Below, piece by piece: positions 22,555-27,128 of a stretch of DNA of 64,000 nucleotides (the first letter of the stretch is position 1; every line of letters starts with the position of its first letter). The notes below the pieces were generated by a model. It did no database searches and was not told the origin of the DNA. It saw nothing but the letters and a program-made list of their open reading frames with translations. A program made the position numbers and the translations under genes. The stretch is from an uncultured Gemmatimonadales bacterium (GTDB taxonomy: Bacteria > Gemmatimonadota > Gemmatimonadetes > Gemmatimonadales > GWC2-71-9), in the NCBI GenBank assembly GCA_963748815.1, contig CAVVKJ010000009.1, positions 100,004-164,003 of the forward strand, given 5' to 3'.

Positions 22555-23145
22555 ATGCTCACCAACGACTCCTATGAACTGCTCCGCCGGCTGGCCTCCC
22601 CCCTCGTAGCGGTCACCTCCGCCCACGGAGGCCGGACCAACGGCATGATCCTCGACAGCGCCATCCGGGCGAGCATCTCCCCCGAACACCCCCGCCTGTC
22701 GGTCTACATCCACAAATGGCACCTGAGCCACGACCTGGTCTGGGCCAGCGGCCGCTTCGGCGCCCACCTGCTCACCCAGGACCAGCTCGAGCTGGTCCAC
22801 CATCTGGGCTTCAGGAGCGGTCGGCAGGACGCGGACAAGCTCGCCTCGGTGCCCCATCACATCGGCGAGAGCGGCGTCCCCGTGCTCGAGGAGTGCCACG
22901 CCGCCTTCGAATGCCGGGTCATCAACACGATGGACGCCGGTCCCTCGACGCTCTTCCTCGGCGAGGTCGTGGCCACCCACGGCGGCGCCACGGGGCCCCT
23001 GCTGACGGCGGACTATTTCCGGGCGAACCTGCCGGCGAAGTGGCGGGAGGAGTTCCTCAAAAACTACCGCGAGGCCCAGGAACGAATCCGGGACCTCGCG
23101 GCGGTGCAGGACGTGCGGCGGTGGGGCGGGCCTACAGCGCCTTGA
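22555..23145 (+). CDS. Flavin reductase family protein
   Basis: LVAVTSA..NGM, SISPEHPRLSV, GVPVLEECHAAFECRV, GPSTLFLGEV. Confidence 0.85.
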   Translation: MLTNDSYELLRRLASPLVAVTSAHGGRTNGMILDSAIRASISPEHPRLSVYIHKWHLSHDLVWASGRFGAHLLTQDQLELVHHLGFRSGRQDADKLASVPHHIGESGVPVLEECHAAFECRVINTMDAGPSTLFLGEVVATHGGATGPLLTADYFRANLPAKWREEFLKNYREAQERIRDLAAVQDVRRWGGPTAP

Positions 23146-24520
23146 TCTCCGTGATCAGGCTGGTCAGCGACTTCTTGGCGTCGCCGAAGAGCATGGCGTT
23201 CTTCGGGTTGTAGAACAGTTCGTTCTCGATACCGGCAAATCCGGCGCTCATCCCCCGCTTCATGACGATGATGCTCTTCGCGTGGTCGGCGTTGAGGATC
23301 GGCATCCCGTAGATGGGGCTCGACGGGTCGGACCGCGCCGCCGGGTTGACGACGTCGTTGGCGCCGATGACCAGCGCCACGTCGGCCCGCTGGAAGTCGT
23401 CGTTGATCTGGTCCATTTCGCAGAGCTTCTCGTAGGGCACGTTCGCCTCCGCCAGGAGGACGTTCATGTGCCCCGGCATCCGCCCCGCCACGGGGTGGAT
23501 CGCGTACTTGACCTCCCCGCCCCGCCGCTCGATCAGGTCGGCCAGCTCGCGCACCGCGTGCTGCGCCTGCGCCACCGCGAGCCCGTACCCCGGCACCACG
23601 ATCACGAACTGTGCGTAGCCGAGTTGCACCGCGGCATCCTCGACCGTCACCTGGCGGACCGTGAGCCCTGCGGAGCTCTTGCCGCCGCCGGATGCCTCGC
23701 CGCCGAAGGCGCCGAAGAGCACGTTGGTGAGCGAGCGGTTCATCGCCTTGCACATGATCTGGCTCAGGATGATCCCCGACGACCCGACCAGCGCGCCCGC
23801 GATGATGAGCAGGTTGTTGTGGATGACGAAGCCGGTCATCGCCGCGGCGATGCCGGAGTAGGAGTTCAGCAGGGAAATGACCACCGGCATGTCGGCGCCG
23901 CCGATGGGAATCACCAGGAGCACGCCGAGGATGAGCGCCAGCGCGATGACCGCGTAGAAGGGCCAGAGCACCTGTTCCGGCACGATCAGCTGGTAGGCCG
24001 CGAGCCCGACGATGGCGGCGAAGAGCGTCCCGTTGACCACCTTCTGCAGCGGAAAGGTGATCGGCTTGCCGGTCATGACCTCCTGGAGCTTGGCCCAGGC
24101 GATCAGGCTGCCCGACAGCGTCACCGACCCGATCAGGAGGCTGAGCTGGGTCGTGATGCCGATGTCGATCGTCGGGGTGACGCCGGCCAGCTCCGCCTTC
24201 AGGAACTCCGCGCCGCCCACGAGGAGCGAGGCGCCGCCGCCAAAGCCGTTGAGGAGCGCGACCATCTGCGGCATCGACGTCATCTTCACCGCGCGCGCCA
24301 TCCAGAGCCCGGCCGCGGAGCCGATGAACATGCCGACCAGGATTTCCTGGTAGGTCAGGATGCCGTGGTCGAAGAGCGTCACCGCGATGGCGATCAGCAT
24401 GCCGACGCCCGACATCCGGTTGCCCTGCCGGGCCGTGAGCGGGCTGCCCAGGCGCTTCAGGCCCAGGACGAAGAGGACGGCGGCCACCAGGTAGAGGAGT
24501 TGTTCGAGCGCGACGGGCAT
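23132..24520 (-). CDS. pntB: NAD(P) transhydrogenase subunit beta
   Basis: MPQMVALLNGFGG, GGADMPVVISLLNSYSG, VPGYGLAVAQAQ, HPVAGRMPGHMNVLLAEA, GANDVVNP. Confidence 0.96.
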   Translation of the reverse strand: MPVALEQLLYLVAAVLFVLGLKRLGSPLTARQGNRMSGVGMLIAIAVTLFDHGILTYQEILVGMFIGSAAGLWMARAVKMTSMPQMVALLNGFGGGASLLVGGAEFLKAELAGVTPTIDIGITTQLSLLIGSVTLSGSLIAWAKLQEVMTGKPITFPLQKVVNGTLFAAIVGLAAYQLIVPEQVLWPFYAVIALALILGVLLVIPIGGADMPVVISLLNSYSGIAAAMTGFVIHNNLLIIAGALVGSSGIILSQIMCKAMNRSLTNVLFGAFGGEASGGGKSSAGLTVRQVTVEDAAVQLGYAQFVIVVPGYGLAVAQAQHAVRELADLIERRGGEVKYAIHPVAGRMPGHMNVLLAEANVPYEKLCEMDQINDDFQRADVALVIGANDVVNPAARSDPSSPIYGMPILNADHAKSIIVMKRGMSAGFAGIENELFYNPKNAMLFGDAKKSLTSLITEIKAL

Positions 24521-24810
24521 TACTTGGCCTCCGGCTTCTTCGTGAACATCTCCAGCATCCGGTCGGTCACCGCGTAGCCGCCCACCACGTTCATCATGGC
24601 GAAGACCACGGCGCTGACCCCGAAGACCCACGAGATCCACCCGTAGCCGCCGCCGGCCACCACCAGCGCGCCGACGATGGTGATGCCGCTGATCGCGTTG
24701 GCGCCGGACATCAGCGGGGTGTGGAGCGTCGTGGGGACGCGATTGATCAGCTCGACGCCGAGAAAGGTGGCGAGCACGAAGAGCGTGATGCTCAGGACGA
24801 GGGCTTCCAT
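24520..24810 (-). CDS. pntAB: NAD(P) transhydrogenase subunit alpha, part 2 (membrane)
   Basis: LHTPLMSGANAISG and NVVGGYAVTDRMLEMF. Confidence 0.93.
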   Translation of the reverse strand: MEALVLSITLFVLATFLGVELINRVPTTLHTPLMSGANAISGITIVGALVVAGGGYGWISWVFGVSAVVFAMMNVVGGYAVTDRMLEMFTKKPEAK

Positions 24811-24812
24811 GA

Positions 24813-25922
24813 TCAGGCCGCCTTGCCGGTGCGGAGTTCGCCCGCGTGCGTGACGCACATCGGGCCGGTGATCGGGTCGGAGAGGTCCACCTGCAGGGCC
24901 CCGTCCTTGAGGAGGTGGGTCACGAAGGTGAGCACGTTGCGACCGTACATCTGGCTGGCGTGGAGCGGTACGCCGGCGGGGAGGTTGACCGGGGACAGAA
25001 TGGTCACCCCGTTCACCGTCACCGTCTCGCCGAACTTTGTCAGCTCGCAGTTGCCGCCGGACTCCCCCGCCAGGTCCACGATGACCGAGCCGGGCTTCAT
25101 GGCGCGCACCGCCTCCGCCGTGATGAGCCGCGGCGCGGGCCGGCCCGGAATCTGTGCCGTGGTCACGATCAGGTCCTGGCTCTTGGCGTGCTCGCCGATG
25201 CCCGCGACCACCCGGGCCTGCTGCTCCTCGGCCAGTTCCTTGGCATAGCCGCCCTGCCCCTCGCCCTCGACGGCGGCCACTTCCACGAAGGCGGCGCCCA
25301 GGCTCTGGACCTGCTCGCGCACCACCGAGCGCACGTCGAACGCGGAGACGATGCCGCCAAGGCGCCGCGCCGTGGCGATCGCCTGGAGGCCGGCGACGCC
25401 GGCGCCGACCACGAACACCTTGGCCGGGGCGAGCGTTCCGGCGGCGGTGGTCAGCATCGGCAGAATGCGGCCCATGGCGTCGGCGCCGATCAGCACTGCC
25501 TTGTACCCGGCGATCGTCGCCTGCGAGGAGAGCGCGTCCATCGACTGCGCCTTGGTGGTGCGGGGCACCAGTTCCATGGCGAAGGCGGTCACCTTCCGGC
25601 CTGCCAGCGCCGCGAGGAGATCGCCCGAGGCCGAGGGCGCGAGGAAGCTGACCAGCGCCGCCCCCTCGCGGAGCTGGCCGGCTTCTTCGGCGGTCGGGCG
25701 CTGCACCTTGAGCACGAGGTCGGCGCCCAGCGCGTCGGCCGCGGTCCCGACCAGGGTGGCGCCGGCCGCCTCGTACTCGGCGTCGGGCACGTAGGCGGCG
25801 GCGCCGGCGCCGCGCTGCACCAGGACCTCGCAGCCGGCCTTCTTCAGCTTGGCCACGCCGTCGGGCACCAGCGCCACGCGCCGTTCGTCGGGGCGAGTTT
25901 CCGCAGGGACTCCAATGCGCAT
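24813..25922 (-). CDS. pntAA: NAD(P) transhydrogenase subunit alpha, part 1 (dI)
   Basis: ERRVALVP, AQSMDALSSQ, GAGVAGLQA, TTAQIPGRPAP, DLAGESGGNC. Confidence 0.95.
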   Translation of the reverse strand: MRIGVPAETRPDERRVALVPDGVAKLKKAGCEVLVQRGAGAAAYVPDAEYEAAGATLVGTAADALGADLVLKVQRPTAEEAGQLREGAALVSFLAPSASGDLLAALAGRKVTAFAMELVPRTTKAQSMDALSSQATIAGYKAVLIGADAMGRILPMLTTAAGTLAPAKVFVVGAGVAGLQAIATARRLGGIVSAFDVRSVVREQVQSLGAAFVEVAAVEGEGQGGYAKELAEEQQARVVAGIGEHAKSQDLIVTTAQIPGRPAPRLITAEAVRAMKPGSVIVDLAGESGGNCELTKFGETVTVNGVTILSPVNLPAGVPLHASQMYGRNVLTFVTHLLKDGALQVDLSDPITGPMCVTHAGELRTGKAA

Positions 25923-25963: not shown

Positions 25964-26518
25964 TCAGTGGGCCGCGGTGAGCGAATCGACCGCGGCGCCG
26001 AGGGCGGTGTAGGCGGTGGGGTCCACTTCCCGAAAGGGGATCGCCCGGTATCCGATGGTGCCGTCCGGCGCCACGACGAAGAGGTTCCGGTTGTTGAGCC
26101 CGGTCACGCTGTGCGCCCCGTACGCTTTGCCGACCGCGCCGTCGGGGTCGCTGAGGAAGACGAACGGATAGTCCGCCTCCTTCGCCCAGGCCGCCAGCGT
26201 CTCGGGGGGATCGGTACTGATGGCCAGCAGGACCACGTCCTTGCCGCCGTTGAACACCGTCGCGTACTGATCACGGTACGCGTTCATCTGGATGGTTCAG
26301 CCCTTGGTCTTCGCCTTGTAGAAGAAGGCGATGACCACCGTCTTGTCGCGCAAGTCGGCCAGCTGGACCTTGGCGGGAAGGATGCCGTCCCGCGTGGCGC
26401 CGGTGAGCGCGAACGGCGGGGCGACGGCGCCGACGGCCAGCGGTTCCTGGGACGCGCCGGTGCAGGCGATCCCGACGACGAGCGCGGCGCCGACCGCGAT
26501 CCCACGGGGAGAATGCAT
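25964..26518 (-). CDS. Peroxiredoxin-like (AhpC/TSA, BCP-like) lipoprotein with in-frame UGA, probable selenoprotein
   Basis: ORFs 26297-26521 and 25964-26287 are one frame: APPFAL...VVIAFFYKAKTKG-UGA-TIQM...AISTD...FLSD...RNLFVVAPDG. The UGA at 26297-26299 is at the TxxC cysteine position. Confidence 0.88.
26261..26282 (-). promoter_or_regulatory. Putative bacterial SECIS hairpin
   Basis: CGCGUAC-CGUGAUCA-GUACGCG, a 7-bp perfect stem beginning 14 nt after the UGA with G near the 5' side of the loop. Confidence 0.6.
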
Positions 26519-26638
26519 CACGCCAACCTCGAGGAGAGAGTCACTGGAATGTACATCGGCCTGCGCGATCCGGGCCCCCCGGCGGTCGGTCCGCGTCCGC
26601 CCCGACCGGTTTCTCGAGGGAAAACCCGCCGATTCCTA

Positions 26639-26734: not shown

Positions 26735-27128
26735 ATGGCAACCAAGAAGAAGAAGGCAGCGAAGAAGCCGGCGAAGAAGGCCGCCAAGAAGGCGGTCAAG
26801 AAGTCCGCCAAGAAGAAGACCGTCAAGAAGGCCGCCAAGAAGAAGGCCCCGAAGAAGAAAAAGACGGCCTCCAAGCGTAAGCCGTCGGCGGCGTTCATGA
26901 AGCCGATGAAGATTTCCCCCGCGCTCGCGGCGGTCATCGGCGCCGGTCCGTATCCGCGCACCGAAGTCACCAAGCGGCTCTGGGCGTACATCAAGAAGAA
27001 CAAGCTCCAGGACAGCCAAGAACAAGCGCGACATCAACGCCGATGCCAACCTCAAGGCGGTCTTCGGTGGACGCGGCAAGGTCAACATGTTCGAGATGAC
27101 CAAGCTCGTCAGCAAGCACCTTTCGTAG
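26735..27128 (+). CDS. SWIB/MDM2 domain protein with histone H1-like Lys/Ala-rich N-terminus (one +1 frameshift near 27015)
   Basis: MATKKKKAAKKPAKKAAKK..., then FMKPMKISPALAAVIG..PRTEVTKRLWAYIKKNKLQD; the next frame gives KNKRDINADANLKAVFGG..VNMFEMTKLVSKHLS*. Confidence 0.88.

What the first reader, a model, noticed from the sequence alone, without database searches (positions are those of the whole stretch)
25964..26518. Hidden selenoprotein: peroxiredoxin-like lipoprotein with UGA at the catalytic position and a SECIS-like hairpin
Seen: two small ORFs join in frame across one UGA (26297-26299) to give a 184-aa thioredoxin-fold protein, FFYKAKTKG-U-TIQM. The catalytic Arg region (NNRNLFVV) is intact, and a 7-bp hairpin begins 14 nt downstream. 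The only Cys is in the signal peptide lipobox (GIAC), so there is no resolving Cys. Known: Prx use PxxxTxxC, Sec-containing Prx-like proteins exist, and bacterial SECIS elements lie immediately 3' of the UGA. Unusual here are the predicted lipoprotein export, Tyr instead of the conserved Pro, and a Lys-rich active-site loop. Inference: an extracytoplasmic 1-Sec peroxiredoxin-like family that standard gene callers miss. Other errors in this window are indels, so a substitution error at exactly this codon is less likely.
Basis: partly seen in the sequence, partly recalled or inferred. Interest (0 to 1): 0.85.

Follow-up and report, generated by a model that had tools for sequence, protein, structure and literature searches.

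The report
Exported selenium peroxiredoxin lacking its proline
The apparent stop codon inside this gene very likely encodes selenocysteine in a predicted exported peroxide-destroying enzyme common across Gemmatimonadota bacteria, and most selenium versions carry tyrosine or phenylalanine where almost all cysteine versions keep the textbook active-site proline.

Summary
Confirmed, on the minus strand (26518→25964). The gene encodes a 184-aa AhpC/TSA protein with TGA at the peroxidatic position (T71-x-x-U74) and Arg144. The genome has selA, selD, tRNA-Sec, a frameshifted selB and a second selenoprotein (SelW). Of 167 distinct family genes, 132 have TGA and 35 Cys. The 6-bp hairpin core is intact in 132/132 TGA genes and 2/35 or fewer Cys genes. 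All 50 tested TGA-bearing genomes have selA; 15/18 Cys-only ones lack it. So it is a real selenoprotein gene, not an error. The lipoprotein claim is doubtful: a lipobox-like Cys occurs in 11/167 genes, while an export signal is family-wide. The striking feature is the PxxxTxxC proline. TGA genes have Phe 72, Tyr 52, Val 1, Pro 7. Cys forms have Pro in 35/35 genes and 95/95 database proteins; two damaged-looking exceptions exist. The switch recurs on the tree (at least 7 changes, about 7 of 8 independent pairs agree, p≈0.016; one Pro clade rejected). CcdA and TlpA neighbours suggest the reductant. Sec-peroxiredoxins and exported peroxiredoxins are known. This scan found this family before on other DNA. 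Verdict: new variant of a known kind.

The parts
25964..26518 (-). Gene for a 184-aa selenocysteine peroxiredoxin-like protein (AhpC/TSA)
   Evidence: PF00578 E 4.5e-25; AhpE fold, TM 0.82
26527..26530 (-). GAGG, likely ribosome-binding site, 8 nt before the ATG
   Evidence: sequence; function inferred
26447..26518 (-). Predicted export signal, residues 1-23/24; Cys19 (26464-26462) is a possible lipobox Cys; G-A-S|Q is an alternative SPI-type cut
   Evidence: rule-based only, SignalP not available
26318..26320 (-). Tyr67 codon, at the position of the conserved Pro of PxxxTxxC
   Evidence: alignment to AhpE; family counts
26306..26308 (-). Thr71, catalytic Thr of TxxU
   Evidence: Thr in 125/132 Sec genes
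26297..26299 (-). In-frame UGA at the peroxidatic position (Sec74)
26261..26282 (-). SECIS hairpin, nt +15..+36 after the UGA (7-bp stem, 8-nt loop with G at loop position 2)
26087..26089 (-). Arg144, conserved catalytic Arg
   Evidence: 167/167 family genes

Best explanation
This gene very likely encodes a selenocysteine-containing, one-residue (1-Sec) peroxiredoxin that is predicted to be exported to the cell envelope and would reduce hydroperoxides there. Shown by sequence and comparison: the UGA at the catalytic position, the conserved hairpin, the Thr/Arg catalytic residues, the peroxiredoxin fold, the N-terminal hydrophobic signal and the absence of a resolving Cys. Inferred steps: (1) SelB binds the hairpin 15-36 nt after the UGA and inserts Sec74 (about 0.95). 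(2) The protein is exported, as a soluble envelope protein in most of the family and possibly lipid-anchored in this clade (export about 0.9; lipidation about 0.45). (3) The Sec74 selenolate, aided by Thr71 and Arg144, attacks the peroxide and becomes selenenic acid (about 0.8). (4) With no resolving Cys, an outside dithiol recycles it, most likely an exported TlpA-like thioredoxin fed by CcdA, as with Caulobacter PprX (about 0.55). (5) Tyr67/Phe replaces the active-site Pro as a selenium-specific adjustment of the pocket, probably capping the reactive selenium. Cys forms need the Pro, and lineages that switch between Sec and Cys switch this residue as well (coupling about 0.75; the capping role about 0.35).
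For: Family: 132 of 167 distinct genes have TGA at this codon, 35 have TGY. SECIS: six wobble positions inside the hairpin are 94-100% fixed in TGA genes against 49-69% in Cys genes, while downstream control wobbles are 48-85% and 46-89%. The outer pair +15/+36 is complementary in 97/132 genes (CG, GC, UA, UG, AU; shuffle mean 47.6, max 60; relatedness not corrected). It meets the published bSECIS limits (stem 4-16 bp, loop 3-9 nt, G in the first two loop positions, 16-37 nt spacing, MFE ≤ -7.5; PMC13188914 passage). Machinery: selA, selD and tRNA-Sec are over their cut-offs; selB is present in frameshifted pieces; a SelW gene with TGA is present. selA was found in 50/50 genomes with a TGA copy and not found in 15/18 genomes where only a Cys copy was seen. 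Fold: AlphaFold pLDDT 94.3; top PDB hit is the 1-Cys AhpE, TM 0.82. No extra Cys in 129/132 Sec and 35/35 Cys genes. Hydrophobic N-terminus in 166/167. CcdA-type and TlpA-type genes lie beside the gene in 32 and 36 of 105 loci. Pro site: TGA genes F72/Y52/V1/P7; Cys genes P 35/35; 95/95 full-length Cys proteins P. On the tree, at least 7 changes are forced by strongly supported branches; of 8 independent pairs about 7 agree and 0 oppose, p≈0.016. One clade of all Pro forms is rejected, p-AU 3.6e-10 (63-row subset).
Against: No biochemical evidence of Se insertion, activity or localisation. The coupling is one-sided: 7 Sec genes keep Pro, and 4/4 Sec-peroxiredoxins from the phylum of L147 (Acidobacteriota by its record title) keep Pro, so Sec does not need the aromatic residue. 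Two database proteins of the family pair Cys with Ser or Phe (P0160, P0225; both look damaged), and two pair Phe/Tyr with Leu at the Sec site (P0010, P0140). The first pairs test (167 rows) was not significant (p 0.125). Trees are quick LG+G4 trees on about 150 columns, with long Cys branches. In this genome CcdA and TlpA are not beside the gene; TlpA sits beside a Cys paralogue. The protein is far below the NCBIfam cut-offs for BCP (60 vs 140 bits) and PrxU (46 vs 270). The hairpin is not unusually stable in wider windows.
Confidence: 0.8

Rival explanations
1. It is a real selenoprotein but not mainly a peroxidase: with the Pro gone and a basic loop, the Sec form works as an envelope thiol/disulfide or redox-relay protein, or on another oxidant.
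For: The Pro is described as absolutely conserved in Prxs (PMC3322552 legend) and as part of the PxxxTxxU motif (PMC13188914). The protein is below the family cut-offs for BCP and PrxU.
Against: Thr71, Arg144 and the AhpE-like fold are kept. There is no CxxC/UxxC. Sister Cys forms carry the full PxxxTxxC motif, and Sec and Cys forms alternate within clades, which points to one job.
Confidence: 0.1
2. The Pro/aromatic pattern is not a catalytic adaptation. It comes from ancestry, recombination with Cys-Pro paralogues, or a translation effect of the nascent peptide on UGA recoding.
For: Some genomes hold tandem Sec and Cys copies (G085, G204). Cys branches are long. Sec+Pro forms exist.
Against: A single Pro clade is rejected with the trait and SECIS columns masked. 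Independent pairs agree. Phe/Tyr and Pro codons differ by at least two bases. Sec forms use almost only Phe/Tyr, not a relaxed mix. Nested Cys-Pro genes such as L053 keep a near-intact hairpin sequence, which fits recent descent from a Sec gene.
Confidence: 0.25
3. The UGA is a sequencing error, a pseudogene lesion or a true stop between two genes.
For: The assembly has frameshifts, even in selB. Met78 gives gene callers a start for a 107-aa fragment.
Against: The same TGA is in 132 distinct genes across several families, and an independent contig shows no change to a Cys codon. Synonymous constraint on the hairpin exists only with TGA. TGA tracks selA. Met78 is equally conserved in Cys forms, and the fragment lacks the catalytic residue.
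Confidence: 0.02

Closest known systems
Selenocysteine peroxiredoxins (Prx, PF00578, TxxU; prototype PrxU of Eubacterium acidaminophilum, Söhling 2001, seen only as a reference entry and table row in PMC13188914)
   Same: PF00578 fold, TxxU at the peroxidatic site, in-gene SECIS, conserved Arg.
   Different: The review calls PxxxTxxU highly conserved; here 125/132 Sec genes lack the Pro. The family has an export signal and no resolving Cys, scores 46 bits against the PrxU cut-off of 270, and sits in Gemmatimonadota, which the review's main text does not mention.
PprX, periplasmic peroxiredoxin of Caulobacter crescentus (PMC3322552, passages read)
   Same: Exported peroxiredoxin; reduced through a DsbD-family membrane protein and TlpA, the same kinds of genes found beside this family in 32 and 36 of 105 loci.
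   Different: PprX uses Cys, keeps PXXXTXXC and has a resolving Cys; this protein uses Sec, has Tyr for Pro and has no resolving Cys.
AhpE of Mycobacterium tuberculosis (1-Cys peroxiredoxin, PDB 1xxu/1xvw)
   Same: Best sequence and structure match among solved proteins (E 2e-12; TM 0.82); single catalytic chalcogen.
   Different: 33% identity; AhpE has Cys and Pro, and its matching region starts where this protein's signal peptide ends.

Membership tests
Sec-containing peroxiredoxin (Prx, PF00578, TxxU) | AhpC/TSA domain and peroxiredoxin fold | tested here: met
   PF00578 88.4 bits over cut-off 26; Foldseek top hits AhpE and BCP
Sec-containing peroxiredoxin (Prx, PF00578, TxxU) | TxxU with UGA at the peroxidatic position, plus conserved Arg | tested here: met
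   T71-K-G-U74 and R144
Sec-containing peroxiredoxin (Prx, PF00578, TxxU) | Pro of PxxxTxxU/C | tested here: not met
   Tyr67; 125/132 Sec genes lack Pro. Filed as a variant that works like a Prx, not as a canonical member
Sec-containing peroxiredoxin (Prx, PF00578, TxxU) | bSECIS directly 3' of the UGA | tested here: met
   Fits the model limits; conserved only in TGA genes; bSECISearch itself not run
Sec-containing peroxiredoxin (Prx, PF00578, TxxU) | selA, selB, selC, selD in the genome | tested here: met
   over cut-off; selB present but split by a frameshift in this assembly
Sec-containing peroxiredoxin (Prx, PF00578, TxxU) | Selenium incorporation and peroxidase activity | not testable with these tools
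   needs 75Se labelling/MS and enzyme assay
PrxU (NF040737) / BCP (NF006960) equivalogs | Curated NCBIfam score cut-off | tested here: not met
   45.7 vs 270 and 60.1 vs 140 bits
PprX-type periplasmic peroxiredoxin | N-terminal export signal | tested here: met
   hydrophobic stretch in 166/167 genes by a crude rule; SignalP not available
PprX-type periplasmic peroxiredoxin | Resolving cysteine | tested here: not met
   no second Cys in the mature protein
PprX-type periplasmic peroxiredoxin | Reduction by TlpA and a DsbD-family protein | tested here: inconclusive
   gene neighbourhood in 32-36/105 loci, but not in this genome
Bacterial lipoprotein | Lipobox ending in a conserved Cys | tested here: inconclusive
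   G-I-A-C departs from the recalled [LVI][ASTVI][GAS]C consensus at -3. The Cys is kept in 10 of 11 genes of the window's clade; the rule finds it in 11/167 overall
AhpE subfamily | Subfamily-specific active-site profile | not tested
   only best-hit similarity

The most novel reading that the evidence does not exclude
A phylum-wide exported 1-Sec peroxiredoxin whose active site is tuned to selenium. The otherwise near-universal peroxiredoxin proline is replaced by Tyr/Phe only when Sec is present, and Pro returns each time a lineage loses the Sec machinery and reverts to Cys. This is a repeated natural experiment that names one residue needed to make a Sec enzyme work as a Cys enzyme, and the reverse.
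Probability: 0.55. Interest if true: 0.72.

Novelty: new variant of a known kind. Interest (0 to 1): 0.55.

Why it matters
Why enzymes use selenium rather than sulfur, and what must change in an active site when they swap, is a long-standing question that is usually studied by artificial Sec→Cys mutants. This family supplies many natural Sec/Cys sister pairs with one coupled second-site change at a residue thought invariant, so a four-variant kinetic test becomes straightforward. It also shows that Gemmatimonadota widely use selenocysteine in an envelope antioxidant that databases record as a truncated 107-aa fragment without its catalytic residue.

Tried and rejected
Folding energy as evidence for the SECIS: not better than shuffles in 41-121-nt windows, so I relied on conservation. 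A perfect Sec↔aromatic rule, seen in the first 116 genes, was dropped when lower-scoring relatives gave 7 Sec+Pro genes. Lipoprotein as a family trait was rejected. The Lys-rich loop as Sec-specific was rejected. A link to the downstream pnt (transhydrogenase) genes: the neighbourhood is limited to about 10 loci of the window's clade, so not used. The careful tree and the AU test on 264 rows did not finish; quick trees and a 63-row AU test were used. A crude genome scan for readthrough genes found this gene (top score) but missed SelW, so it is not a complete selenoproteome. RNA run X15 had only short contig pieces on the gene and none across the UGA, so there is no expression evidence. A sigma-70 promoter scan found nothing. 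No complex prediction with TlpA was run, because a transient enzyme-reductant pair is a poor case for it. Literature searches with no report of this family or of the Pro change. These cover open-access text only; supplementary selenoprotein lists were not read and could contain members. A word search of earlier scan findings for the Pro/Cys coupling gave nothing.

Full report
OBSERVATION. The feature lies on the minus strand, 26518→25964. Read with TGA as Sec it gives 184 aa, with Tyr67-K-A-K-Thr71-K-G-Sec74 (TGA at 26299-26297), Arg144, and Cys19 as the only Cys. Table 11 splits it into two ORFs, and the protein database holds the 107-aa C-terminal piece. Of the 120 listed hits, 24 are such fragments. 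Pfam AhpC-TSA scores 88 bits. An AlphaFold model of the mature domain (pLDDT 94.3) matches the 1-Cys peroxiredoxin AhpE best (TM 0.82, 33% identity), and Sec74 aligns with AhpE's peroxidatic Cys and Tyr67 with its Pro. The 7-bp hairpin starts after a 14-nt spacer (-9.4 kcal/mol), but wider windows fold no better than shuffles. A contig from an independent public run spans the codon with one difference in 401 nt, not of the type that gives a Cys codon.

GENOME. G000 (86% complete) has tRNA-Sec, selA and selD over their cut-offs. selB is present in pieces split by a frameshift, with its C-terminal domain readable. A second gene, SelW/Rdx, has an in-frame TGA. Close relatives are titled Gemmatimonadales.

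FAMILY. A search of 301 genomes of the phylum matched 297 at some level. Among the listed best matches, 14 had no internal stop and the rest had one TGA (G157, flagged unpublished, counts only in that tally). I assembled loci. In one search, 122 of 131 loci aligned across the site; the 9 dropped were one fragment and eight distant proteins. Six exact duplicates were removed and 54 were added, giving 170: 132 TGA, 35 in-family Cys and 3 paralogues used as outgroup. This set is chosen, not random, and kin are not independent. The 6-bp hairpin core is intact in 132/132 TGA genes and in 2 of the 38 Cys rows. Wobble positions inside it are 94-100% fixed with TGA and 49-69% with Cys; control wobbles do not differ. 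The outer pair shows CG/GC/UA/UG/AU alternatives, with 97/132 paired against a shuffle mean of 47.6. The element fits the bSECIS model given in PMC13188914 (passages). Of 80 genomes searched for selA, all 50 with a TGA copy have it (three also hold a Cys copy). Of 18 with only a Cys copy seen, 15 lack it, and 12 had no clear orthologue. The gene is therefore a real selenoprotein gene.

EXPORT AND REDUCTANT. A hydrophobic N-terminal stretch is found in 166/167 genes, 100 with an AxA|Q-like cut and 11 with a lipobox-like Cys by crude rules. The Cys is kept in 10 of 11 genes of the window's clade, but G-A-S|Q offers a signal-peptidase-I alternative, so lipidation is open. No resolving Cys exists in 129/132 Sec and 35/35 Cys genes. 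A CcdA-type (PF02683) gene and an exported TlpA-type gene flank the family gene in 32 and 36 of 105 longer loci, all Sec forms, on the opposite strand in the loci inspected. In G000 they lie elsewhere, and TlpA directly precedes an exported Cys paralogue. This resembles the ScsB→TlpA→PprX route of Caulobacter (PMC3322552, passages). The partnership is inferred.

THE PROLINE. TGA genes have Phe 72, Tyr 52, Val 1 and Pro 7 at the Pro site; Cys genes have Pro 35/35. All 95 full-length Cys proteins among the 120 hits have Pro. Among 150 more distant representatives, 95 Cys motif matches had Pro and 6 did not; 50 proteins gave no motif match. Two of the six are in-family and look damaged. Trees were built with the Sec/Cys site, the Pro site and the SECIS-coded residues masked. 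With 167 rows, the pairs test was not significant (about 4 agree, 0 oppose, p 0.125). With 94 database Cys proteins added, strongly supported branches force at least 7 changes for the aromatic state, and of 8 independent pairs about 7 agree and none oppose (p≈0.016). On a 63-row subset one clade of all Pro forms is rejected (p-AU 3.6e-10). Cys-Pro genes are nested among Sec-aromatic ones (e.g. L053, L060/L063). With the paralogue root this reads as Cys-Pro → Sec-Pro → Sec-aromatic with repeated returns to Cys-Pro, but the root is uncertain. Against a strict rule: 7 Sec-Pro genes, and 4/4 Sec-peroxiredoxins among ten hits in 151 genomes of another phylum keep Pro, one of them with a signal peptide. 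So Cys appears to require Pro, while Sec permits and here favours an aromatic residue. One structural paper calls the Pro a barrier to solvent (PMC3337327, one passage). That a Tyr/Phe cap protects the selenium is my inference and is untested.

MECHANISM. SelB-directed Sec insertion; export; attack of the selenolate on the peroxide aided by Thr71 and Arg144 (the general scheme for peroxidatic Cys/Sec in PMC7231847, abstract and passages); reduction of the selenenic acid by an outside dithiol, probably TlpA fed by CcdA. The sequence features are shown; each chemical step is inferred.

KNOWN AND NEW. Sec-peroxiredoxins are a known class: 91 proteins in 78 organisms in PMC5029168 (table passage), with the motif given as highly conserved PxxxTxxU in PMC13188914 (passages). 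Exported peroxiredoxins are also known (PprX). Neither review's main text contains 'Gemmatimonad', and searches showed no report of this family or of the Pro change. Supplements were not read, and subscription papers are outside the library. The protein fails the Pro criterion and the PrxU/BCP cut-offs, so I file it as a variant that works like a peroxiredoxin. This scan has reported the family from other genomes at least eight times, once noting the missing Pro. I consulted these notes only after the family, selA and tree analyses were done.

VERDICT. A real, mis-annotated selenoprotein; a new variant of a known kind. Interest 0.55, resting mostly on the repeated Sec/aromatic versus Cys/Pro switch, which is directly testable.

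Noticed in passing
G000:C8:192245-192451 + (L219): SelW/Rdx-family gene with in-frame TGA (CxxU), a second selenoprotein in this genome.
   Followed up: partly
G000:C10:513295-515125 - (L011/L012): selB is split by a frameshift in this assembly, probably an assembly indel; SelD at C5:163204-164127 is the Cys form, not a selenoprotein.
   Followed up: partly
G000:C10:812297-813295 - (L051): An exported TlpA-like thioredoxin lies directly upstream of an exported Cys/Pro peroxiredoxin paralogue, so the genome has two envelope peroxiredoxins, one Sec and one Cys.
   Followed up: partly
G085:C19:42173-43191; G204:C14:128508-129553; G288:C3:322476-323649: Tandem copies of the family gene: Sec plus Cys in G085 and G204, two Sec copies in G288. 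A Cys copy could be a low-selenium backup.
   Followed up: no
L214 (G377:C1:2347807-2348193), L209, L212, L216: Unrelated BCP-type peroxiredoxins with in-frame TGA and Pro kept, in the phylum of L147; L214 has a signal peptide.
   Followed up: partly
P0010, P0140: Two database proteins of the family have Leu at the Sec position with Phe/Tyr at the Pro site; likely a single-base error or mutation of TGA.
   Followed up: no
P0165, P0190: Exported paralogues with no Cys at the catalytic position, possibly non-catalytic peroxiredoxin-fold proteins.
   Followed up: no
window 23132-25922 -: NAD(P) transhydrogenase genes start 42 nt after the peroxiredoxin stop on the same strand; this neighbourhood is limited to about 10 loci of the window's clade.
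   Followed up: partly
window 26736-27100 +: Divergent gene for a very Lys/Ala-rich small protein, recalled as histone-like with a SWIB-type C-terminal domain; not confirmed by a family scan. It appears upstream of the family gene in part of the relatives.
   Followed up: no
G000:C18:18479-19726 and C10:1175846-1177093: Two near-identical molybdopterin oxidoreductase genes, one near a contig end; possible duplication or assembly overlap.
   Followed up: no
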